The notes below the pieces were generated by a model. That model was given only the letters and a program-made list of their open reading frames with translations, was not told the DNA's origin and searched no databases. This document shows, piece after piece, positions 1 to 26,946 of a stretch of 32,000 nt of DNA. This DNA is from Acaryochloris marina MBIC11017 (GTDB taxonomy: Bacteria; Cyanobacteriota; Cyanobacteriia; Thermosynechococcales; Thermosynechococcaceae): assembly GCF_000018105.1 (NCBI RefSeq), contig NC_009925.1, positions 5,490,001 through 5,522,000 on the forward strand, given 5' to 3'. Every line of letters starts with the position of its first letter. Within the stretch, counting starts at the first letter, position 1. The translations under genes were made by a program, and so were the position numbers.

Positions 1-696
1 ACCAACTGCTTTACAATTTTGTTTTGGACCAGTTTTAAAGCATTCTTGAAAGGCTTCATTACAGGGATTCTCAAAATCTCCAAAACGGAACCACCAACCA
101 CGACCTTTTGCAGCAACAGAGCAGTATCTATAAATAGGGTTTTGATTTAAGGAAGACTGAGCTTTTAAAAAATAGCTTATTGTTTTGTTTGCAACAAAAA
201 TTTCTTGAGAAAAAACTTCCTTAGTCAAATTTCTAACATTTGTACCAAAGCTATGTGTAAATCCTGGATTAGAACATTGTCTTTGTTTTACATCTGCTGG
301 AAGCCACCCAATAACATATCTTCCATTTTCTGCATGGCACGGGAAAAAATACTGTGTGGACTTAAGAGAAGGTCCAGCTTTCATGCCTAATGTTTGATCC
401 TTCTGACCATCAAATACGTAGCTTATGAATGCTTCTGCCCTTGAATTACCTATCATCCATAAATACTGTCTCAAGTTTAATAGTCTAGCGCCGATTTGAA
501 GAGGATTACGGCGCCTAAATTTGTAATCACCTAAAAACATTAAATCTGTTGATGATGGTTCAGGTTTAAAACGAGATATTTCAGCAGCATCTGCAATAGT
601 ACTAGCCTCTGCAACATCTTCAGCTACAAAGAAAAAAAGTGTTAGAAGAATACTAAATGTTAGTGAAGCAAAATTTTTTGTGTATTGAATAATCAT
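1..696 (-). CDS. Hypothetical exported or membrane-anchored Cys-containing protein, partial (C-terminus lies beyond the left edge)
   Basis: Missing from the ORF track because no stop lies inside the window. Hand translation of the minus strand from ATG 696-694 gives 232 sense codons down to base 1, with no tta/cta/tca in that phase: MIIQYTKNFASLTFSILLTLFFFVAEDVAEAST...GRGWWFRFGDFENPCNEAFQECFKTGPKQNCKAVG. The hydrophobic N-terminal stretch looks like a signal peptide or anchor. Same strand and AT-rich composition as the gene 109 bp upstream. No family recognised. Confidence 0.55.
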   Translation of the reverse strand, partial: MIIQYTKNFASLTFSILLTLFFFVAEDVAEASTIADAAEISRFKPEPSSTDLMFLGDYKFRRRNPLQIGARLLNLRQYLWMIGNSRAEAFISYVFDGQKDQTLGMKAGPSLKSTQYFFPCHAENGRYVIGWLPADVKQRQCSNPGFTHSFGTNVRNLTKEVFSQEIFVANKTISYFLKAQSSLNQNPIYRYCSVAAKGRGWWFRFGDFENPCNEAFQECFKTGPKQNCKAVG

Positions 697-765
697 GATT
701 TTTTTAGGAAGAAGTTTAATGAGATAGAAGTTAATAATGCCCTATCTAAAATAAGAAGCTCATAA

Positions 766-802
766 TATCAGTCAATAAAATAAGTTATTTTATTGACTGA
801 TA
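766..802 (-). terminator. Perfect 18-bp inverted repeat just downstream of the caspase-STAND gene; candidate intrinsic terminator, attenuator or operator
   Basis: TATCAGTCAATAAAATAA-G-TTATTTTATTGACTGATA has 18/18 complementary arms and ends 3 nt from the stop codon (806-808). On the minus-strand RNA a moderately U-rich tract follows (UUAUGAGCUUCUUAUUUU). The stem is AU-rich, so terminator strength is uncertain. Confidence 0.4.
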
Positions 803-805
803 ATC

Positions 806-3800
806 TTAAAGCTCTTTAAGACAGAGGTTAATACGATCTTTTATCAAATAGTCAGAATTAGGATCTCCAAAAATTTGGCTTCCAAGTGTTTTTCTATTTA
901 AAGCATTACATTGTTTAGAGACTGAACTATCTGGATCATCTTCGAGCCATACACAACCTTCTTCATTCCATAATTTCTCTATTTCTTTAATTAATCTACA
1001 TGGTATTAATGAAATTTCAAGTGTATTTTCTAATCGTCCATTATTATTTAGATCAGCACCTATACCAATATTTTTATATAGAATAATATATGTTTTTTTA
1101 AGTGCCCCTTCTGTATATTGATTTTCTTCATCAGAGAATTCTGCATTTATTTTAACTTCACCATATTTTTTGTTTTTTAAATCTTTTTTGATTGCTTTAA
1201 TCCGATTTTGTATAACTAATTTGGCTAACTTGTTATCGGAATATTTTGCTAGTGATACGAGTTGACGCTTTTCATTGTTATCTATTTTAAGTGAATTCGG
1301 TAGTTGATTCTGTTTGTAATCAAGTAGTTTCCATATTTCACTGTCATTTTGGATTTTATCAAGTAAAGTTGTAACCGTAGAGATACGAACTCTTCGATAA
1401 TATGCCATTGCAATATTCAATTTACCATCTTCTTCATGTTGATTGGCTTGCTCAATTGTAGTTGTGAGCACTTCCAGTTGCACTGGAGTTTCATTACCTA
1501 ATACCCAAGAATGAATAATACTTAATTTGAGTTGATAAGAATTCCATAATGCAAAACTAATAATAAAAATTAATGAAGCTAATGAAACACCAATTGCAAT
1601 GATTTTATTGCGGTAGACTTTTTTTTCTTGTTGAATTTCTCGCAGTTTACGTTCAACTGCTTCCTTCTTTATTTGATTTTGTTTCTGTTGACTTAACTTT
1701 ATATACTCTTTCCCTACTTTTGAAATGATCTCTAAGTCATTATATTTTTCTATGAAATTTTCTGCTTCAATTAATTTATTTCCTTGAAGTAGCCAAGATA
1801 TATCTTTTTTTCTTCCTCCACTTTTCCATTCCATTGCAGAATATTCAATTTTTCTTGCAATCTTAATAGCATCTCTATGATCATTTATCCATATTTGAAG
1901 CCTAAACCAATATCGTATAAGTGCTTCATGAACAATATTAAGAACAACATTATCTTTTGTTTTATATGAGTCTTTTTCTAGAATAGTATCCGATACTATA
2001 AGTCTTTCCGATACCAGTGTTTGGATAACACTATCAACCAACTTCTCTGATTTTTGATAAATTACAAGTTCGTGTTTATAAATGCTTCTTCTTGTATCAC
2101 TAGTGCCCTCTCCTAGTTGTGTAAGTGCTAAAAAAATTAGTTTAGCTATCTTTTTTTCTTCTGTTGAGAATGATTCATAAACTTCTTCAGCTCTATTTTC
2201 TAAAGCTTTCTTTACACCACCTAAATATACATAATTTTCTAATGTGATACGATTAGATTTCCTATGCTTCCATAGTAACTCCAGCGTATACTCTAGTAAT
2301 GGTAAGCTGCCTGATTCAAGACCAAAATTGTTTATGTAGTCTGAATTTTTATCTATAAATGGCCTAGTATTTAAATCAGATGTTATCTGAACAACAAGAC
2401 CTTCATCAATCCTAAGGCCAGCTTTTTCAGCTGGTTTACCTATTGCTTCCTCTAACTCTTTCATTGTTAATGGCTTGACAGAAACTAAATTATTTTGAAT
2501 TCCGTCAATTAAACCACTGTAATTTTGCTCTGTACACTTCCCAAGAAAATCTGCTCTCATAACAATAATTATTAAAAGCTTATCTTTAATATATTCGAGA
2601 GCACTAAATAAGCATGAAAAGTATTTTTTTCTTTCCTGTTCGGATTCACATAATGTAAAAACCTCTTCAAATTGATCAATGATTAATACAGTCTTAACCG
2701 TATTAGAAATACTAATAATCCTTGAAAGACCCTCACTATTATTTGAAAATAAATTTTCAGCTTTACTTAGTTGGAAAGCGCGATCAATATCCGATATTCG
2801 TTTATCCACAAATGGAAGTGCTAAACTTTTAAGTGGATGATAGCCTGGTGTAAAAATATGAATTTTCCAATTCTCTGAACCTGAAATTTTTGTTCCTTTC
2901 TGCAATTGATAAGCTAATCCAGCTCGAACAACCGATGATTTTCCGCATCCAGATGGACCAATTATGGCTAAAAAATTTATATCTTTTTTCTTGATCTTAC
3001 TTAAAAGCTCATCAGTAAGCTTTTCTCTACCATAAAAATATTCAGCATCACTAATTTTAAAGTGTTGTAGTCCTTTGTAAGGACATTTACCTATAGGATT
3101 AACTTCAGCAATATTAATTTCACTACCAGTCAATATTATTTCATGATTAGGATTTAACCACATCGGTTGTTGAGGTGTTTCTTTCAATTCACGATTGATA
3201 TATTCAATTAGTGAATCGTTAGTAACCACCTTTCTAATACTATTTCTGTAGTTTAGTCCATTAATTATTGCATTTGTCAAAACACTATGACTTCTGTCAA
3301 TTTCCTCAGAAATCTCGAATTCTCTTGATGAAGCAAGTAGAAATAGTGAGCTTCTTTTTTCTCTAACTCCTGGCTCTATATCAATAAAGTTTAATAAGCC
3401 TCCGCTATAACAGCAATCTAACCATACTATTGGTTGCTTGATTGGACTTTCGTGTAATAATCTTTGCAATGTTTGTAGAGAATATCCCCAAAAACCCTTT
3501 GAGGGATTAACATCACTAGATGCTATATATGCTTCATTAATCCCCCAATTTTTTCGTAGACCATGACCAGAATAATATAATAATGCTGTATCTGGTATGT
3601 TTTTACCTTCTGGTTTAAATAGTTGACTAATGGCTTTATCTAATTGTTCTAAATTTATCTTTTTTTGAGATGCTATCTTCCTTTTATTTGCAATGAATGG
3701 ATCTATGAATTCAGGAAGACGTTTAATTCGAAAATTTCCATCATTTTGCAATACTTGCGCTATTCCTTCAGCATCTTTTGCAGGAGCATAAAGTGGTGAT

Positions 3801-3847
3801 AAATATTCATATGTATTTATACCTATAATCAATGCATCTCTAGACAT
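806..3847 (-). CDS. Caspase-like (peptidase C14) - nSTAND-type P-loop NTPase - single TM helix - unassigned C-terminal extracytoplasmic domain
   Basis: 1013-aa ORF with an ATG start. The caspase His/Cys dyad contexts are LLYYSGHGL (His95) and VWLDCCYSGG (Cys145/146). The STAND lead-in is PYKGLQHFKISDAEYFYGRE, followed by Walker A GPSGCGKS (nt 2936-2959), Walker B VLIIDQFEE, and later HEALIRYWFRLQIWINDHRD. A hydrophobic helix IIAIGVSLASLIFIISFALW (aa 749-768, nt 1544-1603) is preceded by KKVYRNK. The roughly 245-aa C-terminal region has 4 Cys. Confidence 0.85.
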   Translation of the reverse strand: MSRDALIIGINTYEYLSPLYAPAKDAEGIAQVLQNDGNFRIKRLPEFIDPFIANKRKIASQKKINLEQLDKAISQLFKPEGKNIPDTALLYYSGHGLRKNWGINEAYIASSDVNPSKGFWGYSLQTLQRLLHESPIKQPIVWLDCCYSGGLLNFIDIEPGVREKRSSLFLLASSREFEISEEIDRSHSVLTNAIINGLNYRNSIRKVVTNDSLIEYINRELKETPQQPMWLNPNHEIILTGSEINIAEVNPIGKCPYKGLQHFKISDAEYFYGREKLTDELLSKIKKKDINFLAIIGPSGCGKSSVVRAGLAYQLQKGTKISGSENWKIHIFTPGYHPLKSLALPFVDKRISDIDRAFQLSKAENLFSNNSEGLSRIISISNTVKTVLIIDQFEEVFTLCESEQERKKYFSCLFSALEYIKDKLLIIIVMRADFLGKCTEQNYSGLIDGIQNNLVSVKPLTMKELEEAIGKPAEKAGLRIDEGLVVQITSDLNTRPFIDKNSDYINNFGLESGSLPLLEYTLELLWKHRKSNRITLENYVYLGGVKKALENRAEEVYESFSTEEKKIAKLIFLALTQLGEGTSDTRRSIYKHELVIYQKSEKLVDSVIQTLVSERLIVSDTILEKDSYKTKDNVVLNIVHEALIRYWFRLQIWINDHRDAIKIARKIEYSAMEWKSGGRKKDISWLLQGNKLIEAENFIEKYNDLEIISKVGKEYIKLSQQKQNQIKKEAVERKLREIQQEKKVYRNKIIAIGVSLASLIFIISFALWNSYQLKLSIIHSWVLGNETPVQLEVLTTTIEQANQHEEDGKLNIAMAYYRRVRISTVTTLLDKIQNDSEIWKLLDYKQNQLPNSLKIDNNEKRQLVSLAKYSDNKLAKLVIQNRIKAIKKDLKNKKYGEVKINAEFSDEENQYTEGALKKTYIILYKNIGIGADLNNNGRLENTLEISLIPCRLIKEIEKLWNEEGCVWLEDDPDSSVSKQCNALNRKTLGSQIFGDPNSDYLIKDRINLCLKEL

Positions 3848-3872
3848 GTTTTATCATTCAAGTTTAGTAAAA

Positions 3873-3901
3873 AGAATATTCATTCAAAAAAATTAAGTCA
3901 A
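3873..3901 (-). promoter_or_regulatory. Candidate sigma70-type promoter for the caspase-STAND gene
   Basis: The minus strand reads TTGACT (3901-3896), 17 nt, then TATTCT (3878-3873). The -10 element ends 25 nt upstream of the ATG at 3847. This is a motif match only, in very AT-rich DNA where such matches arise easily. Confidence 0.3.
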
Positions 3902-3925
3902 TGTTAACAACTCATGGTAATTAGC

Positions 3926-3951
3926 CTTGTATCAATAACTTGTATCAATAA
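3926..3951. repeat. Tandem direct repeat, 2 x 13 bp (CTTGTATCAATAA), upstream of the candidate promoter
   Basis: Exact copies at 3926-3938 and 3939-3951. A related TATCAAT core recurs about 30 bp further on. The repeat lies 25-50 bp upstream of the putative -35 on the gene's upstream side. Confidence 0.8.
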
Positions 3952-4240
3952 ATAGATGTTTGAATGCTTCCTGTTATATATATCAATGTACATCTCAGAT
4001 TTTACGCAAAAAATCTAAATTCATGAGAGTTTGCTTAATACAAATCGAAGGAAACTAAATTTTGAAGAAATTGTCAGGGATGGTTAGCCAAATTGACAAG
4101 AATTGCCATATTGCCCGTTAAATTTTGCCTTTCCTGTTGTTAAGCAGTCTGAAATATTTCTTCAAGTTCACTAACACCTCTGATGAACTTATTTCTTTTA
4201 TCAAGTAGAGACACGCATTCTGCCATTCGAGTACGAGATC

Positions 4241-4774
4241 TCAAAAAGTTACACACTTCATCCACCGCTTTGCAAAACTGATGAACTGCTTTAATCCAAG
4301 GGTAGGGTGATAGCGCTTTTTGACTGGACTGTGACTTTGCTCAATGAGATTCTCAGTGCAGGGGCGAACCTCATGCTCTGCATTCTTACCCAATTCTTCT
4401 TCAATAGCAGGAGGTTAGGACGCCAAGCCATCTGTCGCGACCTTATTGGGTGGATTCTCGTGCAGGTTAGTTCGAATTTGTTCTGTAAAATGAGGCAGAA
4501 ATCTTTCTTTCCAATCCCGCACGGTTTCATGGGCAAATTCAAAACCTCGAATCCAGAAGTACTCGGCCACATCCCGATAGCTATGTTTTTAGCGTACTCG
4601 GACTAGGAGAACCTGAAATACTATATTTGTAGGGACCTCAATAAAATTGAAGGGAGTGCCTATACGTTTGTTGTAACTCCTGCAACACACTTTGCATCGA
4701 AACCGAACATATCCAAGGGCAGTCTTACTCTGAAGAAATGAGACTCGGGTTGAGCGGCAATGAGGACAATCCAT
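4241..4774 (-). pseudogene. IS6-family (IS26/IS240-like) transposase remnant with an in-frame stop and an internal deletion
   Basis: The N-terminal zinc-finger/HTH part is MDCPHCRSTRV...RFRCKVCCRSYNKRIGTPFNFIEVPTNIVFQVLLVRVR. It is followed by an in-frame TAA (4589-4591), then KHSYRDVAEYFWIRGFEFAHETVRDWKERFLPHFTEQIRTN. After a frame change the family's C-terminal motif appears: NLIEQSHSPVKKRYHPTLGLKQFISFAKR...stop (4241-4243). Only about 40 codons separate the two parts, where the DDE core should be. Confidence 0.7.
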
Positions 4775-4973
4775 TAAATACAGATAGAGTATGACTCAGG
4801 GACAGCACTCAGCCTGTCGGGATGGAAGTGGTTCCTCCATTCTGGGAAAACAGCCCTGACAGTTTCCTCCCAGCTGCTTAACCCGAACTCAGGTTAGCTA
4901 GATAGAACGTGGACTCTTCCAACAATTCCCTCCGTGCTAGGACCCTTCTCAAAGTAAGAATTTCAAACACAAA

Positions 4974-5011
4974 AGCGCCAAGAGTAACAAGGCTCTCTTA
5001 GCGCTTTTTTT
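4974..5011 (-). terminator. Rho-independent terminator downstream of the peroxiredoxin gene (bidirectional hairpin)
   Basis: AGCGCCAAGAG (4974-4984) pairs with CTCTTAGCGCT (4995-5005) with one mismatch. A T7 run flanks it on the plus strand, and TTTTGTGTTTG flanks it on the minus-strand transcript. It lies 19 nt after the stop at 5030. Confidence 0.6.
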
Positions 5012-5029
5012 GATGCCAGACAGTCTTTT

Positions 5030-5467
5030 CTACAAACCTAAGTCAGCCAAAATATCAGTGGCATGGGTATCCGTATTAACGGAAGTATAGACTTTATCGA
5101 TTTGGCCTTGGCCGTTAATCACATAGGTGACACGCTGAGCATACCCACCACCATCAACGTCGTAGGCCTTCATTAGACTATGGTCCACGTCAGCGAGTAG
5201 GGGAAACGGCAGATTGAACTTACTGGTGAAGTCTTGGTGAGATCCTTCATCATCACCACTTACCCCAAAGACCACAATATCTTTGCCTTGGTAAGCAGTG
5301 TAGTTATCACGAAAGCTACAGGCTTCTTTGGTGCAGCCCGGCGTATCGTCTTTGGGATAGAAATATAGGACAACCGTCTTCCCAGCATAATCGGCAAGGG
5401 AAACCGTGTTGCCATTGGTGTCTTTAGTCGTAAACGCAGGAGCAGCAGTACCAGCGGTTAAAGCCAT
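5030..5467 (-). CDS. bcp: Peroxiredoxin Q / BCP-type thiol peroxidase
   Basis: 145 aa with the peroxidatic motif YFYPKDDTPGCTKEACSF and a typical BCP/PrxQ length and layout. Confidence 0.9.
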   Translation of the reverse strand: MALTAGTAAPAFTTKDTNGNTVSLADYAGKTVVLYFYPKDDTPGCTKEACSFRDNYTAYQGKDIVVFGVSGDDEGSHQDFTSKFNLPFPLLADVDHSLMKAYDVDGGGYAQRVTYVINGQGQIDKVYTSVNTDTHATDILADLGL

Positions 5468-5562
5468 AGGGTTTCCTCACAAAAACAGGATAAAAATCTG
5501 GATGGTTCACTCATCCCTGGCTAAAAACCAGAGATACCCAAAGTAGTGTTACATATTTTTTC

Positions 5563-7905
5563 TTACTTGGGGGGGATGGTTGCAGTGGGGTAAGGAATAC
5601 GTTTGTGGTGAAACTGCATCCATACTTCCACAAACACCTCTGCTAATACATTTAACTCATCTCGGGTGAGCTGAGAATCCACGAGCTGGTTATCCTGCCA
5701 GCGGGCTTTGAAAATTTTGTTGATGGTTTTTAGGGCTAAGTCTGGGGTCGCATCTTTGAGGGATCGCAACGCCGCTTCGCAGGAATCCGCCAGCATTACA
5801 ATCCCTGTTTCTCGGGATTGAGGAACGGGTCCAGGATAGCGAAAATCAGACTCTTGAACCGGATCTAGCTCAGGATTGGCAGACGCCTGCTGTTGAGCCT
5901 GATGGTGGAAAAATGCGATTACCATCGTGCCCTGATGCTCAGGGATAAAAGCCTGTACAGCGGCAGGCAAACGACATTTACGGGCCATCACCAGCCCTTC
6001 GGACACATGCTTCTTGATAATCTCGGCACTCTGCCAAGGGTCGTTGAGCAGATCGTGTTTATTGGTGGTGTCCCGCTGGTTCTCAATAAAAAATTGGGGG
6101 TCATGCATTTTGCCAATGTCATGGTAAAGGGTTCCCGTCCTCACCAATTCGACATTACAGTCTAATGCACTCGCCCCTGCTTCCGCCAAAGTGGCCACAA
6201 ACATCGTGTGTTGAAAGGTTCCAGGGGCTTCTCGGGACAACCGTTTGAGCAAAGGTCGATTGGGATTCGCCAATTCCGCCAGTCGAATGGGGGTCACCAG
6301 GTCAAACACATGTTCGATATAGGGGCTGATACCCAAGGCCACAATGGTCCACCCTAACCCCACTAACCCTTGAATCAGAGACAAACCCAAAATGCTATAG
6401 ACCGGGGCTCCTGCCAAAGTCATGAGGATAAACAAAGCCACCCCTTGGGTAATGGCGACAATTACCCCTAACAGGGCAATCTCTTCCCGAGAACGTCGTT
6501 GGCGCGCTACAAGGCTGGCGACCAAACTCCCCGCAGCAATCGCTCCTAGCTCGATAAACCCACTACTCAGCCCCAAGGAAATCAAGCTCGAAAGAATAAC
6601 GACGACTGTTGCCCCCAGCACCGGCCCATAAAAACTACCCACCAGTAGGCCAACCGCAGGCAAACTGGTATATCGCAGAGCGGTCGTCCAAATCAGCAGG
6701 GATGCACTAGCCGACAGCATTAACACCAACACATAATCCCGCCGATCAAATTCAAGGCGACAGCGTCGTTGGACGACTAGAAATACAGCAATCCCCCCAC
6801 TGACGGCCGCCATCGTCCCAAATAAGCCCAGCAAGTTGATGCCCCGTCGACTCAGACCAAAATGTTCGAGTAAGGCAAAGTCAGCTTGGGAAATTCGCTC
6901 ACCGGATTTAACAATGACCTCATCTTTATCAATAGGAATCAGAATGGGAGGAATCTGCTCCGCAATAATTTCTCGCTGACGTAAGGTACCGGTGGGGTCA
7001 ATACTCAGGTTGGGTTTGAGGACGTTGGGCAATAACTTGATGCCCAGGGCTTGAACTTTGGCAGGATAGTCCTGGAGTTGGACCTTAATGGTACTTCGCA
7101 TCACGGTCCCAGGTAATCCTGGAGGAATCCCTTGGGTAAGAATCCGTTTTAACGCCGTCCGTAGCCTTTTCTGGGCCATTGCCCACTCGGGTTCTGTAAA
7201 TTCTAAAAGGGTCCGGCTGGAGAATCCTTGTAGACGGGGAGGAACCTTACCTAAAGCAGCCTGATAGTCTTGCTGGGCCTGGGTGATACTCCGCATCAAG
7301 GCAGACCATTTAACCCCATCTTTTTCTTTGGCTCGATAGGTCCGCAGGGCTTTAATTGCCGCCTGGGCATTCTTGGTTTTTAGCCACGCCGTTGAGGGAG
7401 GGGTCGTGGCATTGACCTGCTTCAGGAGGGTCTGAAAGTCTCCGGTATTCTGTTGCCGTAGAAAATGCTGCACCCTAGGGGATAAAGTCTTAATCGATGT
7501 ATAGGGAAACTCGCCAGCGGACCCTCGGAATTTTTGGATATCTGCCAAGTAAGAATCCAAATCCGCTTGAATAGCAGCCGTTTGAGATGGATTAACCATA
7601 TACACGCTCACCGCATTCCGAAAGGCGGCTTCACGAGCTGCAGCCGTGGCAATGGGATCGGCGGCTTGGGCAGACTCTGGGGCCTTAATCGTTTCTGGGG
7701 CAACGGTACCAATCGTGAGTTGCGGCTCATTATAGAATCGATGGCCGATCACGCTGGTTAGAGCAGCGACAGATACCACAAACAATAGAGGCGATTGCTG
7801 CTTGAGAGACCGACGAGCAGAACGGTTTGAAGGAATACGTGACGCGGCAGAGGAAGATAACCAACGGCTCAGACGTACCTGCTGAGAACGGAATAATTTC
7901 TTCAT
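5563..7905 (-). CDS. 7TM receptor with intracellular HD/HDIG phosphohydrolase domain (7TMR-HD, PgpH/YqfF-like)
   Basis: 780 aa. The layout is an N-terminal anchor, a large extracytoplasmic region, about seven hydrophobic helices (aa ~350-540) and a C-terminal HD domain with LYHDIGKM and FIPEHQGT motifs. Confidence 0.8.
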   Translation of the reverse strand: MKKLFRSQQVRLSRWLSSSAASRIPSNRSARRSLKQQSPLLFVVSVAALTSVIGHRFYNEPQLTIGTVAPETIKAPESAQAADPIATAAAREAAFRNAVSVYMVNPSQTAAIQADLDSYLADIQKFRGSAGEFPYTSIKTLSPRVQHFLRQQNTGDFQTLLKQVNATTPPSTAWLKTKNAQAAIKALRTYRAKEKDGVKWSALMRSITQAQQDYQAALGKVPPRLQGFSSRTLLEFTEPEWAMAQKRLRTALKRILTQGIPPGLPGTVMRSTIKVQLQDYPAKVQALGIKLLPNVLKPNLSIDPTGTLRQREIIAEQIPPILIPIDKDEVIVKSGERISQADFALLEHFGLSRRGINLLGLFGTMAAVSGGIAVFLVVQRRCRLEFDRRDYVLVLMLSASASLLIWTTALRYTSLPAVGLLVGSFYGPVLGATVVVILSSLISLGLSSGFIELGAIAAGSLVASLVARQRRSREEIALLGVIVAITQGVALFILMTLAGAPVYSILGLSLIQGLVGLGWTIVALGISPYIEHVFDLVTPIRLAELANPNRPLLKRLSREAPGTFQHTMFVATLAEAGASALDCNVELVRTGTLYHDIGKMHDPQFFIENQRDTTNKHDLLNDPWQSAEIIKKHVSEGLVMARKCRLPAAVQAFIPEHQGTMVIAFFHHQAQQQASANPELDPVQESDFRYPGPVPQSRETGIVMLADSCEAALRSLKDATPDLALKTINKIFKARWQDNQLVDSQLTRDELNVLAEVFVEVWMQFHHKRIPYPTATIPPK

Positions 7906-8128
7906 TGGATGGTTAGGCGACTAAGGCATATAGGCCATTCAATTGGGAAATATCCTGAAGGCAGAAGTCAGTAGTGCTGGCATAACGGTGTTCCTTGATT
8001 TGTCCACAACTGTTGTTCAAGTCCTTCAATTATAGTCAAATCACTCATTGATACTACTGCCCATGGTTTTTGTACCCCTAAACTGGAGCTGAGGTCGGCT
8101 TTTACATCTGGGAGTGAAAGCGGCAGGA

Positions 8129-9061
8129 CTACCCACGAGGCCGCAGGACGCCTGGTGCAGAAATGGCTGTTTGCTCCAGGGGGAGGGCAATGATGTCATC
8201 GCTCAAATACCCTGACCAAGCCGCCAAAAGCTGATCCGCTTGGGCGAGGATAGAGGTACGAGCCCCTGATGGGGTAGAGAATGCTCCTTGCCAAGCCCAT
8301 GGAATGGCATGAACACCGTTAAATACGCCAGACAAAGCGCCAGTAATCAAGGCCACAAGCCGAGGGAACTGGGGTAAGGTCAGAGGCCGGGTCACCGTCA
8401 AGGCAAAGGTATCCGCTGTACTCGACCAGCAGTAACAGGCCATGGCTAAGGCAGTTGCCAATGGTGAAGTCTCAGGAGATCGTTTCGCATTGACTTCGCT
8501 CCACACCCTAGAAAGACTAGATCGGGTCTGAAGGAGGGTCTGCACTTGTTGTAGCTGAGTATGCAAGGTCGTTCCAGAGAGGAAATCCTGGACCAGCAGT
8601 TGAGAAACCAGGGTTTGAGGGTTGGCCTGTTCCTGGCAGAGGAGTGCGATCGCAACCTCAATACCCAGCATTTCTACTTGCAGATCAGGACTGGCTTCTC
8701 TCAGTCGATGGTCACAAATATAGTTTTGAAGACGAGGTAAATTCTCATGGTAAAACAGAGCTGCTGGTAGCATCTGGGCAATTAAAACAGCTAATTGAAT
8801 TTCGTCCTCAGGAGTGGGAATAGCTATGGTAGGAACTTGAGACTCGTTTGCCCCTTGACTTGAATAGGCAATTACCTCGGATTGGCCTAAGGCAAGCGCT
8901 TCACACCATTTCCCTGACTCTCTGGGCAACGAAACGTTTTGCCCTGAAGCCAAGGTACTGTTTCCGTGTGAGTCGTCCTGCCCATACCCATGGGCATCTA
9001 AGACGGCTACTCCCAAAAACAATCCTCGGAAACGGTCAATCAGTAACTGCTGCATGCACAT
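8129..9061 (-). CDS. Hypothetical protein, possibly a degenerate ADP-ribosylglycohydrolase-family member
   Basis: The N-terminus DRFRGLFLGVAVLDAHG resembles the ARH lead motif (DR.RG.L.G.A.GDALG). The C-terminal ITGALSGVFNGVHAIPWAW resembles the family's IAGALAGAYYG..AIP.W, but the DTDT metal motif before it is absent. Resemblance judged by eye only. Confidence 0.35.
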   Translation of the reverse strand: MCMQQLLIDRFRGLFLGVAVLDAHGYGQDDSHGNSTLASGQNVSLPRESGKWCEALALGQSEVIAYSSQGANESQVPTIAIPTPEDEIQLAVLIAQMLPAALFYHENLPRLQNYICDHRLREASPDLQVEMLGIEVAIALLCQEQANPQTLVSQLLVQDFLSGTTLHTQLQQVQTLLQTRSSLSRVWSEVNAKRSPETSPLATALAMACYCWSSTADTFALTVTRPLTLPQFPRLVALITGALSGVFNGVHAIPWAWQGAFSTPSGARTSILAQADQLLAAWSGYLSDDIIALPLEQTAISAPGVLRPRG

Positions 9062-9141
9062 CGGGGCAACTAAACGCTGCCATTGCTTAATCTTTGCTCA
9101 GCATAAGATAGATCTATTGCCAGTAGATTGGGGAAGGTTCC

Positions 9142-9525
9142 ATGAAATATTTAGGCAGTTGCCATTGTGGCGCGATTCAGTTTGAAGTTGAAGCTCCCAA
9201 AGATCTCCAGGTCGATGCATGCAACTGCTCTATCTGCTCAAAAGCAGGATTCTTGCATCTGATCGTGCCTCAATCCAAATTTAAGTTACTGAAAGGACAA
9301 GACACCCTAACGACCTATCAATTTAATACAGGCGTTGCGCAGCATACCTTCTGTCGAGTTTGCGGCATCAAGCCGTTTTACATTCCTCGCTCCAACCCCG
9401 ATGGCTACGATATCAACGTTCGCTGTCTGGATACTCAACCTGACTCCATAGAAGTGGTGCCCTTTGATGGTGTCAATTGGGAGCAAAATGCCCATAAAGT
9501 GGCCCATAAATCCCAGGAGAATTAA
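9142..9525 (+). CDS. GFA-family (glutathione-dependent formaldehyde-activating / CENP-V-like) zinc protein
   Basis: 127 aa with the Cys pattern CHCG...CNCSICSKAGFLH...FCRVCG. A GGGGAAGG RBS-like element lies 5 nt upstream. Confidence 0.8.
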   Translation: MKYLGSCHCGAIQFEVEAPKDLQVDACNCSICSKAGFLHLIVPQSKFKLLKGQDTLTTYQFNTGVAQHTFCRVCGIKPFYIPRSNPDGYDINVRCLDTQPDSIEVVPFDGVNWEQNAHKVAHKSQEN

Positions 9526-9541
9526 CCTATTCCAGGATTGA

Positions 9542-10516
9542 CTAGCTCACTTCAGCATCTCGATGACGCCAATAGGATGCTTTTTCCGCTTCTAGCTGCT
9601 CAATCGTTTGTTGCAGGGTTTCAATAATTCCGTACATCTCCAGGGGGTCAAATACCTTTAACAAACTAGTTTGCGTGACAATGCCCAAATCTTGTCCCCA
9701 ATTCCAGGACACCACTAAGCGTCGGACTCGTCTGCGCTGCATTTGCTGATGGGCAGACCATAGGGAATCCCCAGGATTCAGCAAAAATAGCGGAGAACTC
9801 ATCACCTCTGACGCCATAATTCTGCCAATATCAAACTGCATTGCCTGAAATTGGACAATATCTCGCTCGGTGACGATACCAATGGGCTTAAGGCCATCAT
9901 CCGGTGCAGGTTCTACAATCACAACGCAACTCACCCGATGTTCAGCCATCAACTGGGCCAGGCTGAGCACTGAACAATGGGGAGGAGCATGAATAACGGA
10001 GGTGGACATCACCTCAGACACCCGGCGCAGCTTTAACAGATTGGCAGGTCGCAACACCCGGCGCAAACTACTAGGTTCGGTGATGCCCACGAGCTTGTTT
10101 TGGTCATCTAAAATCGGCAAATGGCGAATTCGATACCGCCGAAACAGAAACATGACCGCAAAAATATCCTTAAAATCAGCCAAGGGCAGAGTCTTGACGG
10201 GATGGGCCATGACATCGGCAGCAGTGATGCGATCGCAATCCATGCCAGCGGCCGCAAAGCGGACAATATCTCGCTCCGTCAAGATGCCCAAAATCTCCTG
10301 GTCCTGCATAATCAGAGCACAGGTGGGTCGAGTGGTTTCCGTTTCCACATCCCCAGAGTCTTGGGAAGATGCCCCCAGTTCACAACAACTAAAGGGGGTT
10401 TGGCTCATCCGGGCAATCACATCTACTAACGCCGTTTCAGGTGCCAAAATTAAGGGCTGATAATTAATGGCTTCCTCCAAATTAGGAGTACCCACCATCG
10501 GATCATTTTGCTGCAT
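9542..10516 (-). CDS. CBS-domain protein with four CBS motifs (two Bateman modules)
   Basis: Repeated CBS signatures are ILGILTERDIVR, LVGITEPSSLRRVL, PIGIVTERDIVQ and DLGIVTQTSLLKV. The track ORF starts at a TTG (10540); the first ATG, at 10516, is used here. Confidence 0.8.
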   Translation of the reverse strand: MQQNDPMVGTPNLEEAINYQPLILAPETALVDVIARMSQTPFSCCELGASSQDSGDVETETTRPTCALIMQDQEILGILTERDIVRFAAAGMDCDRITAADVMAHPVKTLPLADFKDIFAVMFLFRRYRIRHLPILDDQNKLVGITEPSSLRRVLRPANLLKLRRVSEVMSTSVIHAPPHCSVLSLAQLMAEHRVSCVVIVEPAPDDGLKPIGIVTERDIVQFQAMQFDIGRIMASEVMSSPLFLLNPGDSLWSAHQQMQRRRVRRLVVSWNWGQDLGIVTQTSLLKVFDPLEMYGIIETLQQTIEQLEAEKASYWRHRDAEVS

Positions 10517-10572
10517 CAGTACACACACCCAACTGGACAAATCCAGATCACGAGAGGAGTCATCGGATCAAA

Positions 10573-10926
10573 TCAGCCTGGTTTAAGGGGCTTGGCTCCT
10601 CCTGAAATCCGAGCCGTTTTGCCATACAACCGATCTAACACTCGCTTAACAGAAATACGCTTCCACGAACGCCCTCGCTTGGTCTGATAGCCATTTTGAT
10701 TGAGCCAATCAGCGATCTGCTGTAGGGATTTACCAGATTTGTGATGACGACGAATCAGATCAATAATCTCCGTTTCCCGGGGATTATCCACCAACTCCCC
10801 GTTATGGGAAAGCTGGCCAAACGGAGGAGAACCATATCCTGCATACCCGCCCTGAGCCGCCTTCGCTTGGCGACCTTCATTGAGCCGACGGCTCACCTCA
10901 TTGACATTCCATTTCTCAGCAGACAT
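10573..10926 (-). pseudogene. Truncated serine-recombinase fragment (recombinase domain only; catalytic resolvase domain missing)
   Basis: The 117-aa sequence RLNEGRQAKAAQGGYAGYGSPPFG...ETEIIDLIRRHHKSGKSLQQIADWLNQNGYQTKRGRSWKRISVKRVL matches the region after the resolvase catalytic domain of large serine recombinases. No catalytic Ser domain is present upstream. Confidence 0.6.
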
Positions 10927-11311
10927 AGCGGATTCGTTGAACTCAGAGGAATGTTACAAGAAAATACATTTAAATCATATATGAAAATGAATACACGCCC
11001 TGAAGGTGTATATTAAGGGAATGTTACACCTCTTTCGCCATAAAACTTATTGGTTAACAGTTTTAGTTCAAAAAGGTCTTAAAACTTTTTGGCAAAACAC
11101 TAAAGCAAAAAACCAAAGTACCTGGTGACATCTTAATTCAAGTTGAGTAACATCACTCCTCCTTTCGCCGTATAGACGCAGTTAGAGCTTTCTTCGATCA
11201 ACCTCTTAGTTAAGCCTTATGGGCCAGCTGAAATTTCTATCACAGCTCATAAGGCGCTCCCCTCTTGATCGTTGTCCACCTTACCTATCAAACTTACAAG
11301 GATTTCATTTA

Positions 11312-11611
11312 ATGGCCACCTATAACGTCAGACTGATCAATGAAGCGGAAGGCATCGACGCAACGATAGCGGTCGAAGATGATCAGTATATTTTTGACGC
11401 AGCAGAAGAGAATGATCTGGATTTACCTGTATCTTGCCGATCAGGGGCTTGTTCCAGTTGTGCCGGCAAGGCCATCTCGGGAGAAGTAGACCAATCCGAT
11501 CAATCCTTCTTAGATGATGACCAAATGGCGGCTGGATTCGTGCTGACCTGCGTTGCCTACCCTGCATCAGACTGCACGATTCAAACCCACCAAGAAGATG
11601 CTCTACTTTAG
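11312..11611 (+). CDS. petF: Plant-type [2Fe-2S] ferredoxin
   Basis: [16 protein letters not shown]... with the cluster motif [12 protein letters not shown]...LTC, 99 aa from the internal ATG at 11312. The 31-codon upstream extension in the track ORF (11219) is not ferredoxin-like. Confidence 0.85.
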
Positions 11612-11625
11612 GTTTTGAAAAGATT

Positions 11626-11946
11626 ATGAGTACCGTAGCTTACATACAAGACAACGAGTTTGAACAGTTGCTTAAGGATGAGTCCATCCTTGTGATCGAC
11701 TTTACAGCCACCTGGTGTGGTCCCTGCAAACAAGTGAGTCCCATGATGGACAAATTGGCCACTGATTATGATGGTCGAGCCAAAGTCACCAAAGTTGACG
11801 TTGACAAGAATAAAGGTATTGCCAAGCAATTTGGCATTCGCAGCATTCCAGCAGTCTTAGTCTTTAAATCGGGCGAACTCGTCGAAACTCTGGTGGGCAT
11901 GAGTCCCTATGAGAAATTTACCAGCGCTGTGGATAAACACCTTTAA
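11626..11946 (+). CDS. trxA: Thioredoxin
   Basis: 106 aa with active site WCGPC and the FGIRSIPAVLVF motif. It begins 14 nt after the ferredoxin stop. Confidence 0.9.
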   Translation: MSTVAYIQDNEFEQLLKDESILVIDFTATWCGPCKQVSPMMDKLATDYDGRAKVTKVDVDKNKGIAKQFGIRSIPAVLVFKSGELVETLVGMSPYEKFTSAVDKHL

Positions 11947-11981
11947 ACCGTCGATCCATTCCTTTCGACCAGGATATACCC

Positions 11982-12254
11982 ATGAGTCAAATTGGCACGA
12001 ATACCACCCAAACCATTTGCTGCCCTCAATGCGGCTCCCCTGCAAGGCGGCTGTATTTTACGAGCTCATATCCGACTCATCTCAAATGTCCTGGTGGCCT
12101 AGTTAACCAGGTTGAGTGTCCGAGTTGTGATTATTTAATGGTGTCCTGCGCTGTTGATGGTCAAGTCGTCGAGGCCTATGCAGAAGGGATATCCACCTAT
12201 CATCACTCCACTCAACCTGGCTCTCCAGACAAGCCTCCCTTACCCATGGCCTAG
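11982..12254 (+). CDS. Small zinc-ribbon-like hypothetical protein
   Basis: 90 aa with CPQCGS...CPSCDY (two CxxC pairs) and a Pro-rich tail. It is packed 35 nt after trxA and 68 nt before the CBS gene. Confidence 0.5.
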   Translation: MSQIGTNTTQTICCPQCGSPARRLYFTSSYPTHLKCPGGLVNQVECPSCDYLMVSCAVDGQVVEAYAEGISTYHHSTQPGSPDKPPLPMA

Positions 12255-12322
12255 GGGTTAACGCTAGTTCAGTCAGCCTTTCTAAAACCTAATTCAATCA
12301 CCATTCCTCAGGAGTCAATGCC

Positions 12323-12778
12323 ATGATGCGCGCAGAAGAAATCATGACCCGAGACGTTGTTGCCATTAGTGGCTCAGCAACCGTCGCCGATGCCGTCAGC
12401 AAGATGAAAGAGAAAGGTCTTCGGGCTTTAATTGTTGAGCCTCGGTATGCAGGTGATCCCTATGGGATGGTGACCCAAACCGACATCGTCTACAAGGTGG
12501 CAGCCTTTGGGTATGACCCCAAAAAGATGAAGGTCTACGAAGTCATGACCAAGCCTTGTATTGTCGTTAATCCTGATTTAGGGGTCGAATACGTCGCTCG
12601 TTTATTTGCCAATACAGGCATTCGCCGTGCCCCAGTCGTTAAAGATCATCTCCTCGGGGTTATTTCCATTAGCGATATTCTCAAAAAGAGTGATTTTGTC
12701 GAGAAACCCAAAAGCAATTTTGAACAATATTGCGAAGAGTTCCCCAATGCTCCTGAAGCCCGAATCTACGAAGACTAG
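12323..12778 (+). CDS. Single CBS-pair (Bateman module) protein
   Basis: 151 aa with the motifs IMTRDVVAISGSATVADAV and LLGVISISDIL. An AGGAG RBS lies 8 nt upstream. Confidence 0.8.
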   Translation: MMRAEEIMTRDVVAISGSATVADAVSKMKEKGLRALIVEPRYAGDPYGMVTQTDIVYKVAAFGYDPKKMKVYEVMTKPCIVVNPDLGVEYVARLFANTGIRRAPVVKDHLLGVISISDILKKSDFVEKPKSNFEQYCEEFPNAPEARIYED

Positions 12779-12795
12779 GGCAATACTCACAAGGC

Positions 12796-14262: not shown

Positions 14263-14339
14263 AAATCAAATTGACGAAAACAATAGACAAAAAGGTTCGA
14301 GCGCCACCTAAAAAGGAAGGCCACACCAATGTTTAAGGG

Positions 14340-15878: not shown

Positions 15879-16055
15879 AGCCAGAGCGCCAACCAGGAAA
15901 GGATATTATTCTCAAGATTCCCGAATACAAGGATTTTGCTAAAGGCAAGCCTATGTAGCCTCCTTACTAATGCAAGATTTTTAGCCTATTAGACCACCAG
16001 CCAGAATCTAGATTTGGTAGAGTACTAGACGGAGACAGCAGGTCTGGGAGCCATT

Positions 16056-26610: not shown

Positions 26611-26946
26611 TCAGATAAAGCTGGCAATGTAATTGCGGATGTCTTCATCAGAACTCAGCTTCATCTGGTCTGAGTGATCAAAGAAGTCAATCTGAACAGT
26701 TGAGCCATCCGGACGCCGAACCGTGAATCCGAAGTCCTCCAGAATGACGTCACGATGCTGCCATTGGTCAACAATGGTTAATTCAGGGGTATCTCGAATA
26801 ATCCGCTGAACCTGATGAAATTTACCGTAATACCCAAACTCAACCCATGGAGCAGTAATCGGCGCAAATACGTATAGCCATATACCAAAGATAGAGAGTA
26901 GGGTAAACCCACACATCAATCTGAGTAAAGTTCGTACCGTTTTCAT
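26611..26946 (-). CDS. Small membrane-anchored hypothetical protein
   Basis: MKTVRTLLRLMCGFTLLSIFGIWLYVFAPI... has one N-terminal TM helix and then an ~80-aa soluble domain. The ATG at 26946 is preferred over the TTG at 26952. Confidence 0.5.
   Translation of the reverse strand: MKTVRTLLRLMCGFTLLSIFGIWLYVFAPITAPWVEFGYYGKFHQVQRIIRDTPELTIVDQWQHRDVILEDFGFTVRRPDGSTVQIDFFDHSDQMKLSSDEDIRNYIASFI

What the first reader, a model, noticed from the sequence alone, without database searches (positions are those of the whole stretch)
1..4240. Sharp AT-rich block with no HIP1 sites: horizontally acquired island (or an assembly chimera)
Hand counts of single 60-nt lines give 25% GC (1021-1080) and 32% (2941-3000) inside the block, against 47% (6421-6480) outside. 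The transition falls between about 4100 and 4300, inside the 3' end of the IS6 remnant. The block holds none of the GCGATCGC palindromes scattered through the rest of the window. It contains only two genes, both on the minus strand, and continues beyond the left edge. A step of roughly 20 GC points is unusually large for resident DNA and implies recent acquisition from a low-GC donor (plasmid, phage or another phylum).
Basis: seen in the sequence. Interest (0 to 1): 0.6.

Follow-up and report, generated by a model that had tools for sequence, protein, structure and literature searches.

The report
IS6-flanked low-GC caspase-STAND island
The AT-rich block is real, strain-specific foreign DNA in the cyanobacterium Acaryochloris marina: a 6.4-kb cassette of four genes built around a caspase-like "cell-death/immunity" protein, sandwiched between two dead copies of an insertion sequence, which replaced a glutamate-transporter gene; this is an ordinary kind of genomic island, but three of its four genes are uncharacterised.

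Summary
Observation confirmed. Window 1-4240 has 27-36% GC against 45-53% elsewhere, with the maximum-likelihood change-point at 4207. The lack of HIP1 is true but uninformative: about 1.15 sites are expected, P(0)=0.32.

The window is Acaryochloris marina, probably MBIC11017. The block is the first 4.07 kb of a 6,446-bp cargo (GC 0.308, GC3 0.16-0.20 against 0.44-0.52 in host genes). Two directly repeated 800-bp IS6-family copies bracket it. Both share a 174-bp deletion of the DDE core.

It is not a chimera. Two complete genomes and independent short-read assemblies reproduce the junctions. It is not universal either. Seven loci from other Acaryochloris strains carry a native-composition gltS gene between bcp and a deacetylase gene at this site.

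The cargo is a conserved four-gene operon:
- g1: caspase-nSTAND1 with a TM helix and an ectodomain
- g2: a secreted protein
- g3: a small CP..CPxH protein
- g4: an α-helical membrane protein

The operon matches host GC in other cyanobacteria, so the 31% GC reflects a low-GC donor. Nearest relatives are all cyanobacterial, at 52% identity or less. The g3-g4 pair recurs beside CHAT or caspase-STAND proteins and matches no profile in the family libraries searched.

Verdict: horizontal acquisition is supported. This is a new member of a known kind, of modest interest.

The parts
1..4066 (-). Window part of the 6,446-bp low-GC cargo. The full cargo is L001 9782-16227 and runs about 2.4 kb beyond the left edge of the window.
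   Evidence: GC is 0.308, against 0.473 for the rest of the locus. The sequence is 100% identical in MBIC10699 and in independent assemblies. It is absent from gltS-state strains.
806..3847 (-). g1: a 1013-aa protein (ABW30390.1 / WP_012165630.1). Domain order: Peptidase_C14 caspase (residues 5-229), nSTAND1 NTPase (256-681), a single TM helix (749-767), and a helical, Cys-containing C-terminal domain (about 790-1010).
   Evidence: Pfam gives nSTAND1 at 8e-114 and Peptidase_C14 at 2e-16. Invariant residues are H95, C145/C146, the Walker A and B motifs and four C-terminal Cys. The TM helix comes from hydropathy. The AF2 model has pLDDT 80, and Foldseek hits are MALT1/metacaspase and Orc1/CED-4/Apaf-1/NRC. 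GC3 is 0.179.
1..696 (-). g2: the 5' 232 codons of a 442-aa gene. The protein has an N-terminal signal/anchor sequence and 8 Cys, and matches no family in the profile libraries searched.
   Evidence: Translation is; hydropathy. There is no Pfam, NCBIfam or PADLOC hit. Only 23 representative clusters match among 1.8 billion proteins. Homologues sit in the same position in L097 and L098.
766..802 (-). Perfect 18-nt AT-rich hairpin between the g1 stop codon and the g2 start codon.
   Evidence: Inverted repeat I7, L001 13046-13082. Function not tested.
3848..4066 (-). AT-rich non-coding leader or promoter region upstream of g1, ending at the inner end of IS copy A.
   Evidence: Sequence read. GC is 0.27-0.32 per 60 nt. 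Promoter function is inferred only.
4067..4866 (-). IS copy A: an 800-bp IS6-family element with 20/26 terminal inverted repeats (GAAACTGTCAGGG...). Its transposase gene is broken. Its direct-repeat twin, copy B, lies at L001 16228-17027, outside the window.
   Evidence: The two copies are 773/800 identical. The conceptual translation hits PF13610 DDE_Tnp_IS240 at 31 bits. Both copies carry a 174-bp and a 10-bp deletion plus stop codons relative to the intact IS6 transposase of an A. marina S15 plasmid; residues 80-138, the DDE core, are missing. No 8-bp target duplication is present.
4867..4959 (.). 93 bp of host-like-GC DNA (0.495) lying between IS copy A and the point where homology to island-less strains begins. 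Its origin is unexplained.
   Evidence: Alignment A2. No plasmid match. GC.
4960..5467 (-). Native flank: the bcp (AhpC-TSA peroxiredoxin) gene at 5030-5467 with its terminator hairpin. Homology to island-less strains is continuous from here rightward.

Best explanation
The block is a strain-specific, horizontally acquired island in Acaryochloris marina.

Structure (shown). A 6.45-kb cargo with 31% GC is bracketed by two directly oriented, defective IS6-family copies. This is the architecture of an IS26-type pseudo-compound transposon. Together with about 90 bp and about 80 bp of extra DNA outside the IS copies, it replaced a 1.7-kb segment holding gltS. That segment lies between bcp and a histone-deacetylase-family gene.

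Timing (shown). The replacement happened in the MBIC11017/MBIC10699 lineage, after that lineage split from strains that are 97% identical in the flanks.

Route (inferred). The cassette spent a long time in a genome of about 30% GC, probably a cyanobacterial one. It was then picked up between IS6 copies on an Acaryochloris-type replicon, plausibly a plasmid. It entered the chromosome by IS6-mediated cointegration or translocatable-unit insertion, and an adjacent deletion or recombination then removed gltS and any target duplications. Both IS copies lack the DDE core, so the unit is now fixed unless complemented in trans.

Cargo (architecture shown, function inferred). The cargo is a conserved four-gene operon. 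g1 is a membrane-anchored caspase-nSTAND1 NTPase. Its cysteine-bearing C-terminal domain is predicted to lie outside the cytoplasm. g2 is a secreted partner. g3 is a small CP..CPxH protein. g4 is an all-α membrane protein. The most likely function is a STAND-type conflict or abortive-defence switch. In this model a signal sensed at or beyond the membrane, via the g1 ectodomain and g2, drives NTP-dependent oligomerisation. Oligomerisation activates the caspase domain, which then cleaves g3 and/or g4 to release a membrane-damaging effector.
For: Composition. GC is 0.308 against 0.473 for the host part. GC3 is 0.155-0.201 against 0.44-0.52. The share of AT-rich-codon amino acids (F, Y, M, I, N, K) is 33% against 23%.

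IS bracket. There are two 800-bp direct copies with IRs, an IS240-type DDE remnant and shared deletions. The IS6 family forms pseudo-compound transposons with flanking direct repeats (PMC7986276).

Strain variability and polarity. Seven island-less loci show bcp-gltS-HDAC. They include strain assembly GCA_000238775.3 (92% identical flanks) and SRR29694087 (97%). Their gltS segment has GC 0.49 and GC3 0.50.

Not an artefact. The island is identical in two complete genomes, and the junctions are spanned in independent assemblies.

Residence in Acaryochloris-type DNA. Relatives of the IS at 80-83% identity, and copies of a MITE found at the cargo end, lie on Acaryochloris plasmids.

Cassette conservation. 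g1-g4 occur in the same order in L097 and L098 at 40-60% identity, with host-matched GC.

g1 features. The catalytic His/Cys and Walker motifs are invariant. There is one TM helix and four invariant Cys residues in the C-terminal domain. The fold matches MALT1/metacaspase plus CED-4/Apaf-1/NRC-like NTPases.

g3-g4 module. A g3-like ORF ends just upstream of g4 in 49 of 80 metagenome loci. Of 19 loci with at least 4 kb upstream of g4, 12 have a TPR-CHAT or C14-nSTAND1 protein adjacent to the pair.

Precedent. Protease-gated effector modules are an established design in prokaryotic defence (bioRxiv 10.1101/2025.11.14.688446; PMC7159879).
Against: - No 8-bp target-site duplication is seen in any pairing of the four IS flanks.
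- 93 bp and about 80 bp of DNA outside the IS copies are also absent from gltS-state strains. The IS ends are therefore not the true limits of the replaced segment.
- Both IS copies are non-autonomous. They differ at 27 of 800 positions, mostly near their ends, which is not what a fresh replicative duplication would give.
- No donor was found. The best non-self identities are 52%, 46%, 44% and 45% for g1 to g4.
- The function of the cargo rests on domain content and gene neighbourhood alone. PADLOC recognises only a generic caspase. The predicted g4 fold has no match to any solved structure. No cleavage, toxicity or phage data exist.
Confidence: 0.8

Rival explanations
1. The composite was imported whole by recombination, and the IS copies did not drive the last step. 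Under this reading the IS-cargo-IS composite arose elsewhere, on another Acaryochloris strain or plasmid. An 8.2-kb piece that included short stretches of its former surroundings then replaced gltS by homologous or illegitimate recombination. The IS copies were passengers in the final step.
For: - 93 bp and about 80 bp of host-like-GC DNA (0.49) lie outside the IS copies and have no counterpart in gltS-state strains.
- There are no target-site duplications.
- Both IS copies lack the catalytic core.
- The two IS copies are 3.4% divergent.
- The two island-bearing strains are otherwise near-identical, yet differ in a nearby 5-kb tract. This shows that recombination is active in this region.
Against: No second location of the composite or of its 93-bp and 80-bp flanks was found; the concatenated flanks have no plasmid match. 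Homology to gltS-state strains ends abruptly on the left rather than fading out. IS6-type adjacent deletions also leave no target-site duplications.
Confidence: 0.25
2. Assembly chimera: the AT-rich block was joined to the A. marina chromosome by misassembly at the repeated IS.
For: The GC step coincides with a repeated element, which is a classic place for a misjoin.
Against: The same arrangement is present in two independently sequenced complete chromosomes. The cluster holding g1 includes a 6,503,724-bp contig as well as AP026075.1. Short-read contigs from DRR374621 cross bcp|IS A and IS A|cargo|IS B at 100% identity. The cargo also carries a MITE typical of Acaryochloris.
Confidence: 0.02
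3. Ancient resident DNA with intrinsically AT-rich genes, lost from other strains. Under this reading the difference between strains reflects loss rather than gain.
For: The cargo protein families are cyanobacterial.
Against: - A resident gene would have taken on host codon usage, yet GC3 is 0.18 against about 0.49.
- Orthologous cassettes elsewhere match their hosts' GC.
- Both nearer and more distant strains share the gltS state, whose composition is native.
- IS copies sit at both borders of the block.
Confidence: 0.04
4. Remnant of a prophage, ICE or other integrase-driven element.
For: A 117-aa Recombinase-domain fragment lies 5.7 kb away, at window 10573-10926.
Against: That fragment is also present in the island-less strains. 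No integrase, tRNA, phage or conjugation gene lies within or beside the block. g1 and g4 have no real relatives in IMG/VR: g4 has none, and g1 has only two weak 36% matches confined to residues 256-348. The cargo has no DNA match to phage records.
Confidence: 0.03

Closest known systems
IS26/IS257-type pseudo-compound transposons (IS6 family; Varani et al. 2021, PMC7986276)
   Same: Two directly oriented IS6-family copies flank a passenger segment. The elements are about 800 bp with short terminal IRs and carry an IS240-type DDE transposase gene. Neighbouring host DNA has been lost, as in IS26 adjacent deletions.
   Different: The host is a cyanobacterium and the passenger is a conflict-system operon rather than a resistance gene. 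There is no 8-bp target duplication. Both copies carry the same internal deletion that removes the DDE core, so neither is autonomous. The copies differ mainly at their ends. Extra DNA that is not part of either IS lies outside both copies. The transposase has an N-terminal zinc-ribbon-like extension (a weak match only).
Caspase/STAND NTP-dependent conflict systems of multicellular bacteria (Kaur, Burroughs, Iyer & Aravind 2020, PMC7159879; Pfam nSTAND1 PF20703)
   Same: An N-terminal caspase-family peptidase is fused to an nSTAND1 P-loop NTPase, followed by a variable C-terminal region. The system is common in cyanobacteria and varies between strains.
   Different: In related proteins from the same search, the C-terminal region consists of WD40, pentapeptide or FGE-type repeats. 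Here it is a TM helix followed by a helical domain with four invariant Cys, predicted to be extracytoplasmic. The gene also travels with three conserved partner genes (g2-g4) that match no profile in the family libraries searched.
Protease-effector defence modules (MBL, α/β-hydrolase, Pepco, EACC1, bGSDM and others; Evans et al. 2025 bioRxiv 10.1101/2025.11.14.688446)
   Same: A caspase-superfamily protease fused to a sensor or NTPase is encoded next to a small constant module that includes a membrane protein. The module (g3-g4) recurs beside different proteases: C14-nSTAND1 and TPR-CHAT.
   Different: g3 and g4 match no Pfam, NCBIfam or PADLOC profile. The g1 caspase scores only 77 bits against the NCBIfam model 'caspase_w_EACC1', whose cut-off is 140. 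g4 is a roughly 305-aa α-helical protein with several hydrophobic segments and no match to any solved structure. No cleavage or toxicity has been shown.

Membership tests
Horizontally acquired genomic island | Base composition and codon usage deviate from the host genome | tested here: met
   GC is 0.308 against 0.473. GC3 is 0.16-0.20 against 0.44-0.52. The dinucleotide-signature distance (delta*) is 67.6, against a host maximum of 44.
Horizontally acquired genomic island | Present in some strains of the species and absent from others at the same site | tested here: met
   The island state is seen in the window, L088, L093 and L094. The gltS state is seen in L087, L089-L092, L095 and L096.
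Horizontally acquired genomic island | Mobility genes or repeats at the borders | tested here: met
   Two direct IS6 copies lie at the borders. There is no integrase or tRNA.
IS6 family insertion sequence | DDE transposase of the IS240/IS26 type | tested here: met
   The conceptual translation hits PF13610 at 31 bits (cut-off 27). It is 68-82% identical to an annotated IS6 transposase that scores 113 bits. The gene is broken and lacks the DDE core.
IS6 family insertion sequence | Length of about 700-890 bp with short terminal inverted repeats | tested here: met
   Each copy is 800 bp. The IRs match at 20 of 26 positions in both copies. The family range is taken from PMC7986276.
IS6 family insertion sequence | 8-bp direct target repeats | tested here: not met
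   The flanks are CAGCTGGGAG / TTCAAAATTT / TCAAGCTAAA / ACCATGCGCA. No pairing of them matches.
IS26-type pseudo-compound transposon | A passenger segment flanked by two IS6-family copies in direct orientation | tested here: met
   The copies lie at L001 8982-9781 and 16228-17027 on the same strand, with the cargo at 9782-16227.
IS26-type pseudo-compound transposon | At least one functional transposase, with movement by cointegrate or translocatable unit | tested here: not met
   Both copies lack residues 80-138 of the intact relative and contain stop codons. Actual mobility cannot be tested with these tools.
Caspase-nSTAND1 conflict system | Peptidase_C14 domain with the catalytic His-Cys dyad | tested here: met
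   PF00656 hits at 2e-16. H95 and C145/C146 are invariant in 32 sequences. Foldseek matches MALT1 and metacaspase.
Caspase-nSTAND1 conflict system | nSTAND1 P-loop NTPase with Walker A and B motifs | tested here: met
   PF20703 hits at 8e-114 over the full profile. G297-K303-S304 and D391-E395 are invariant.
Caspase-nSTAND1 conflict system | Triggers cell death or defence when it senses an invader | not testable with these tools
   Inferred from the architecture only.
EACC1-caspase two-gene system | Caspase of the EACC1-associated type, with an EACC1 TM partner | tested here: not met
   NCBIfam NF047832 scores 77 bits against a cut-off of 140. g2, g3 and g4 have no Pfam or NCBIfam hit at E<=0.1-1.
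Catalogued anti-phage defence system (PADLOC-DB v2) | Component proteins match the profiles of a system | tested here: not met
   For g1 there is only a generic 'caspase' profile hit (2e-11) and weak P-loop hits. g2-g4 have no hits.

The most novel reading that the evidence does not exclude
The g3-g4 pair is a small CP..CPxH protein plus a roughly 305-aa α-helical membrane protein, and neither matches a family profile or a solved structure in the libraries searched. The most novel reading is that this pair is an undescribed protease-gated membrane effector module of cyanobacteria. It would be used interchangeably by TPR-CHAT and caspase-nSTAND1 proteins. In the A. marina version it would be wired to a STAND protein whose sensor domain faces the periplasm or lumen and works with a secreted partner (g2). 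That would make it a surface-sensing rather than cytoplasm-sensing caspase switch.
Probability: 0.3. Interest if true: 0.6.

Novelty: new member of a known kind. Interest (0 to 1): 0.35.

Why it matters
For the genome, this is a clean and well-delimited case of recent gene flow into Acaryochloris marina. It shows an IS26-like pseudo-compound-transposon architecture outside the clinical setting where such structures are usually studied. It also cost the host one gltS copy.

For biology, the island delivers a complete caspase-STAND operon that is still in the donor's codon usage. It also draws attention to a recurrent protease-associated two-gene module (g3-g4) and a rare secreted partner (g2), none of which has any annotation. 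If the module proves to be a protease-activated membrane effector, it would add a family to the protease-effector defence modules and would give a membrane-anchored, outward-facing STAND sensor to study.

As a scan result it is mostly confirmatory.

Tried and rejected
1. The genome-contig scan with the deacetylase protein, meant to find empty sites, returned no Acaryochloris. The empty site was found instead through an exact look-up of Bcp.
2. A look-up of the 61-aa IS ORF, meant to count IS copies, found nothing on record.
3. The two extra flank pieces, concatenated as a hypothetical earlier empty site, had no match in 72,556 plasmid records.
4. A DNA search of the cargo against plasmids gave only short caspase-domain matches at 66-71% identity plus the MITE. 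The search against phages gave nothing.
5. The word-indexed protein search with g2 returned a single hit. The exhaustive search found only 23 representative clusters.
6. Viral-contig scans with g4 found nothing. With g1 they gave only two weak P-loop matches.
7. Foldseek of the confident g4 model (pLDDT 91) against the PDB gave no hit below E=0.3 and no TM-score (normalised to the query length) above 0.23.
8. HIP1 absence was dropped as evidence because it is not significant.
9. An integrase or tRNA-linked island was considered and rejected. The only recombinase fragment is 5.7 kb away and is also present in island-less strains.
10. Locus tags AM1_5431 to AM1_5434 appear in no searchable paper.

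Full report
**Observation.**
The composition profile shows 0.27-0.36 GC for every 500-bp window from 1 to about 4250, and 0.45-0.53 afterwards. A two-segment likelihood fit puts the change-point at window 4207, with 0.31 on one side and 0.49 on the other. Across the native part of the locus, 6.4-kb windows have mean GC 0.476, sd 0.012 and minimum 0.44. The block is 0.308. Its dinucleotide-signature distance (delta*) to host DNA is 67.6, against a maximum of 44 for host chunks.

HIP1 (GCGATCGC) occurs 7 times in the window, all at or beyond 8646. At that density only 1.15 sites are expected in 4.24 kb, so P(0)=0.32. The native stretch 4241-8645 also has none. The HIP1 remark is therefore true but carries no weight.

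**Where the window comes from, and the full extent of the block.**
The 1013-aa protein is found exactly in Acaryochloris marina. Its accessions are ABW30390.1 (strain MBIC11017), BDM79209.1 and WP_012165630.1, and the longest contig carrying it is 6,503,724 bp. Locus L001 is the same region from the complete chromosome AP026075.1, whose companion plasmids are named A. marina MBIC10699.

The window is not that record. Over 13.8 kb the two differ at 184 positions, all confined to a 5-kb tract (window about 8350-13350). Everything from window 1 to 8347 is 100% identical.

L001 extends beyond the window's left edge and shows the AT-rich stretch ending about 2.4 kb further on. The stretch holds four co-oriented genes of 1013, 442, 128 and 307 aa, called g1 to g4 here.

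**The borders are two copies of one insertion sequence.**
A second copy lies in the same orientation at L001 16228-17027, just past the last cargo gene.
- Each copy has terminal inverted repeats matching at 20 of 26 positions (GAAACTGTCAGGG...).
- The two copies are 773/800 identical, and the differences cluster in the terminal 60 bp or so.
- The conceptual translation hits Pfam DDE_Tnp_IS240 at 31 bits (cut-off 27). It is 68-82% identical to an annotated IS6-family transposase on an A. marina S15 plasmid.
- Both copies share a 174-bp deletion that removes residues 80-138, the DDE core. They also share a 10-bp deletion and stop codons.

The last 140 bp of the IS are themselves only 35% GC. This explains why the composition step appears to fall 'inside' the IS.

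Directly repeated IS6-family copies flanking a passenger segment are the signature of IS26-type pseudo-compound transposons (PMC7986276). Against a textbook case, none of the four flanks pair up as an 8-bp target duplication.

**Not a chimera.**
The arrangement is present in two independently determined complete chromosomes. Independent short-read assemblies also reproduce the junctions. Logan contig DRR374621_47 equals L001 9666-16318 at 100% identity, so it runs from inside IS copy A, through the whole cargo, into IS copy B. DRR374621_106 runs from bcp 90 bp into IS copy A.

**Not universal: the alternative state of the site.**
An exact look-up of the neighbouring Bcp protein returned ten loci. 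Seven of them carry bcp, then a 474-aa Glt_symporter gene (gltS) on the opposite strand, then the Hist_deacetyl-family gene (HDAC), with no IS and no cargo. These seven include assembly GCA_000238775.3 (flanks 92% identical) and run SRR29694087 (flanks 97% identical). The gltS segment has native composition, with GC 0.49 and GC3 0.50.

Homology between the two states ends just after the bcp terminator, at window about 4960. It resumes about 75-85 bp beyond IS copy B. So about 1.7 kb holding gltS was replaced by about 8.2 kb, made up of 93 bp, IS copy A, the cargo, IS copy B and about 80 bp.

Both a closer and a more distant lineage share the gltS state. That state is therefore taken as ancestral, and the island as a gain in the MBIC11017/MBIC10699 lineage.

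The two short outer pieces have host-like GC (0.49) and match nothing in the plasmid collection. Their origin is unexplained.

**The cargo composition is a donor signature, not a property of the genes.**
GC3 of g1-g4 is 0.179, 0.196, 0.155 and 0.201. Fourteen neighbouring host genes range from 0.40 to 0.52, or 0.44-0.52 leaving out one 77-aa ORF that lies in a separate low-GC patch. The share of AT-rich-codon amino acids (F, Y, M, I, N, K) rises from 23% to 33%.

The same four genes occur in the same order at two other loci:
- In an ENA metagenome contig (L097), identities to g1-g4 are 52, 46, 44 and 44%, and the genes have 0.39-0.49 GC.
- In Leptolyngbya sp. SIO4C1 (L098), identities are 44, 40, 43 and 42%, and the genes have 0.61-0.63 GC, matching their surroundings.

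The cassette therefore takes on the composition of its host. The A. marina copy must have resided for a long time in a genome of about 30% GC and arrived too recently to change.

All near relatives of g1 and g4 are cyanobacterial. No donor closer than 52% exists among 5.8 billion proteins. There are no real relatives in viral contigs and no DNA matches to phages.

Two observations suggest a stay on an Acaryochloris-type replicon, plausibly a plasmid, before chromosomal insertion. This is an inference.
- IS relatives at 80-83% identity lie on Acaryochloris plasmids.
- A 124-bp MITE-like element with 33-nt imperfect inverted repeats sits between g4 and IS copy B. Copies of it at 77-87% identity lie on many Acaryochloris plasmids.

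**What the cargo encodes.**
g1 has a Peptidase_C14 caspase domain (residues 5-229) followed by an nSTAND1 NTPase (256-681). Across 32 full-length homologues, H95 and C145/C146 are invariant, as are Walker A (G297...K303-S304) and Walker B (D391...E395). There is a single strongly hydrophobic helix at 749-767. After it comes a confidently modelled helical domain of about 220 aa (pLDDT about 90) with four invariant cysteines. Foldseek matches the N-terminal half to MALT1 and yeast metacaspase, and the middle to Orc1/Cdc6, CED-4, Apaf-1 and plant NRC resistosomes.

In related nSTAND1 proteins returned by the same search, the C-terminal region consists of WD40, pentapeptide or FGE-type repeats. 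A TM helix followed by a likely extracytoplasmic domain is a variant of that plan.

- g2 has an N-terminal signal or anchor sequence and 8 Cys. It has no family assignment and only 23 related clusters among 1.8 billion representatives.
- g3 (128 aa) has a conserved C99-P...C118-P-x-H121 motif.
- g4 (307 aa) belongs to a family of about 390 proteins. Almost all are cyanobacterial and all are 'hypothetical'. Its AF2 model has pLDDT 91 and is all-α, with 12 helices and hydrophobic segments. It has no structural match in the PDB.

**A recurrent module.**
In 80 metagenome loci fetched with the g4 profile, a g3-like ORF ends just upstream of g4 in 49. Among 19 loci with at least 4 kb of upstream sequence, 11 have a caspase-superfamily protein directly upstream on the same strand. 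These are either TPR-CHAT (PF12770, E 1e-50 to 1e-57) or Peptidase_C14-nSTAND1-WD40. One further locus has C14-nSTAND1-WD40 directly downstream.

g3-g4 therefore behaves as a constant module attached to different caspase-type proteases. This is the same design as the protease-effector defence modules surveyed by Evans et al. (bioRxiv 10.1101/2025.11.14.688446) and the caspase/EACC1 systems of Kaur et al. (PMC7159879). It is not one of those by the tests available. g2-g4 have no Pfam, NCBIfam or PADLOC hit, and the g1 caspase scores 77 bits against a cut-off of 140 for the EACC1-associated caspase model.

**Mechanism: what is shown and what is inferred.**
Shown:
- foreign composition;
- the IS6 direct-repeat bracket;
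- replacement of gltS;
- strain specificity and reproducibility;
- conservation of the operon;
- intact catalytic motifs in g1;
- linkage of g3-g4 to caspase-family proteases.

Inferred:
- IS6-mediated cointegrate or translocatable-unit insertion, followed by adjacent deletion, as the route. The main rival is import of a pre-formed composite by recombination. The outer flank pieces, the missing duplications and the divergent IS ends favour that rival.
- An abortive or conflict function for the operon. In this model, sensing through the g1 ectodomain and g2 triggers NTP-dependent oligomerisation, caspase activation and cleavage of g3/g4 to release a membrane effector.

**Verdict.**
The assembly-chimera alternative is rejected, and the HIP1 argument should be dropped.

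The feature is a new member of a well-known kind: an IS-bracketed genomic island carrying a conflict system. The more novel element is the cargo, namely a membrane-anchored caspase-STAND protein with three conserved, unannotated partners. This makes the locus worth a modest follow-up but does not make it a surprise.

Noticed in passing
window ~8350-13350 (L001 500-5500): The window genome and MBIC10699 are 100% identical on both sides of this 5-kb tract, yet within it they differ at 184 positions plus 2 indels, up to about 8% per 500 bp. It looks like a recombination tract imported into one of two otherwise near-identical strains. The tract covers the CBS, thioredoxin, ferredoxin, Recombinase-fragment and GFA genes.
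   Followed up: partly
L001 16045-16168 (beyond the window's left edge, between g4 and IS copy B): A 124-bp MITE-like element with 33-nt imperfect terminal inverted repeats and TA flanks. Copies at 77-87% identity lie on at least 13 Acaryochloris plasmids (S15, Moss Beach, MBIC10699).
   Followed up: partly
window 766-802: A perfect 18-nt inverted repeat with a 1-nt loop, TATCAGTCAATAAAATAA / TTATTTTATTGACTGATA, lies between the g1 stop codon and the g2 start codon. It could be a terminator, attenuator or RNA-processing site within the operon.
   Followed up: no
window 26750-29000: A second, milder low-GC patch (0.39-0.43). It contains a 464-aa ORF with a DUF6745 domain (27272-28666, minus strand) and a 113-aa ORF with no family hit. 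It may be another, older acquisition.
   Followed up: partly
L001 19000-20000 (outside the window, about 2 kb beyond the deacetylase gene): A short patch of 0.32-0.37 GC containing only small ORFs of 66-77 aa. The corresponding genes are also called in island-less strains, so this patch is separate from the island.
   Followed up: no
site between bcp (window 5030-5467) and the deacetylase gene: Island-bearing strains have lost the 474-aa Na+/glutamate-symporter-family gene (gltS) that occupies this site in other Acaryochloris strains. Whether another gltS copy compensates was not checked.
   Followed up: no
window ~5005-5030 (just after the bcp stop codon): A 24-bp indel between island and island-less strains lies immediately downstream of bcp, before the shared terminator hairpin.
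   Followed up: no
window 4067-4866 and L001 16228-17027: The 27 differences between the two IS copies cluster in the terminal 60 bp or so of each end. The interior, including the shared deletions, is almost identical. This suggests either gene conversion of the interiors or copies with different histories.
   Followed up: partly
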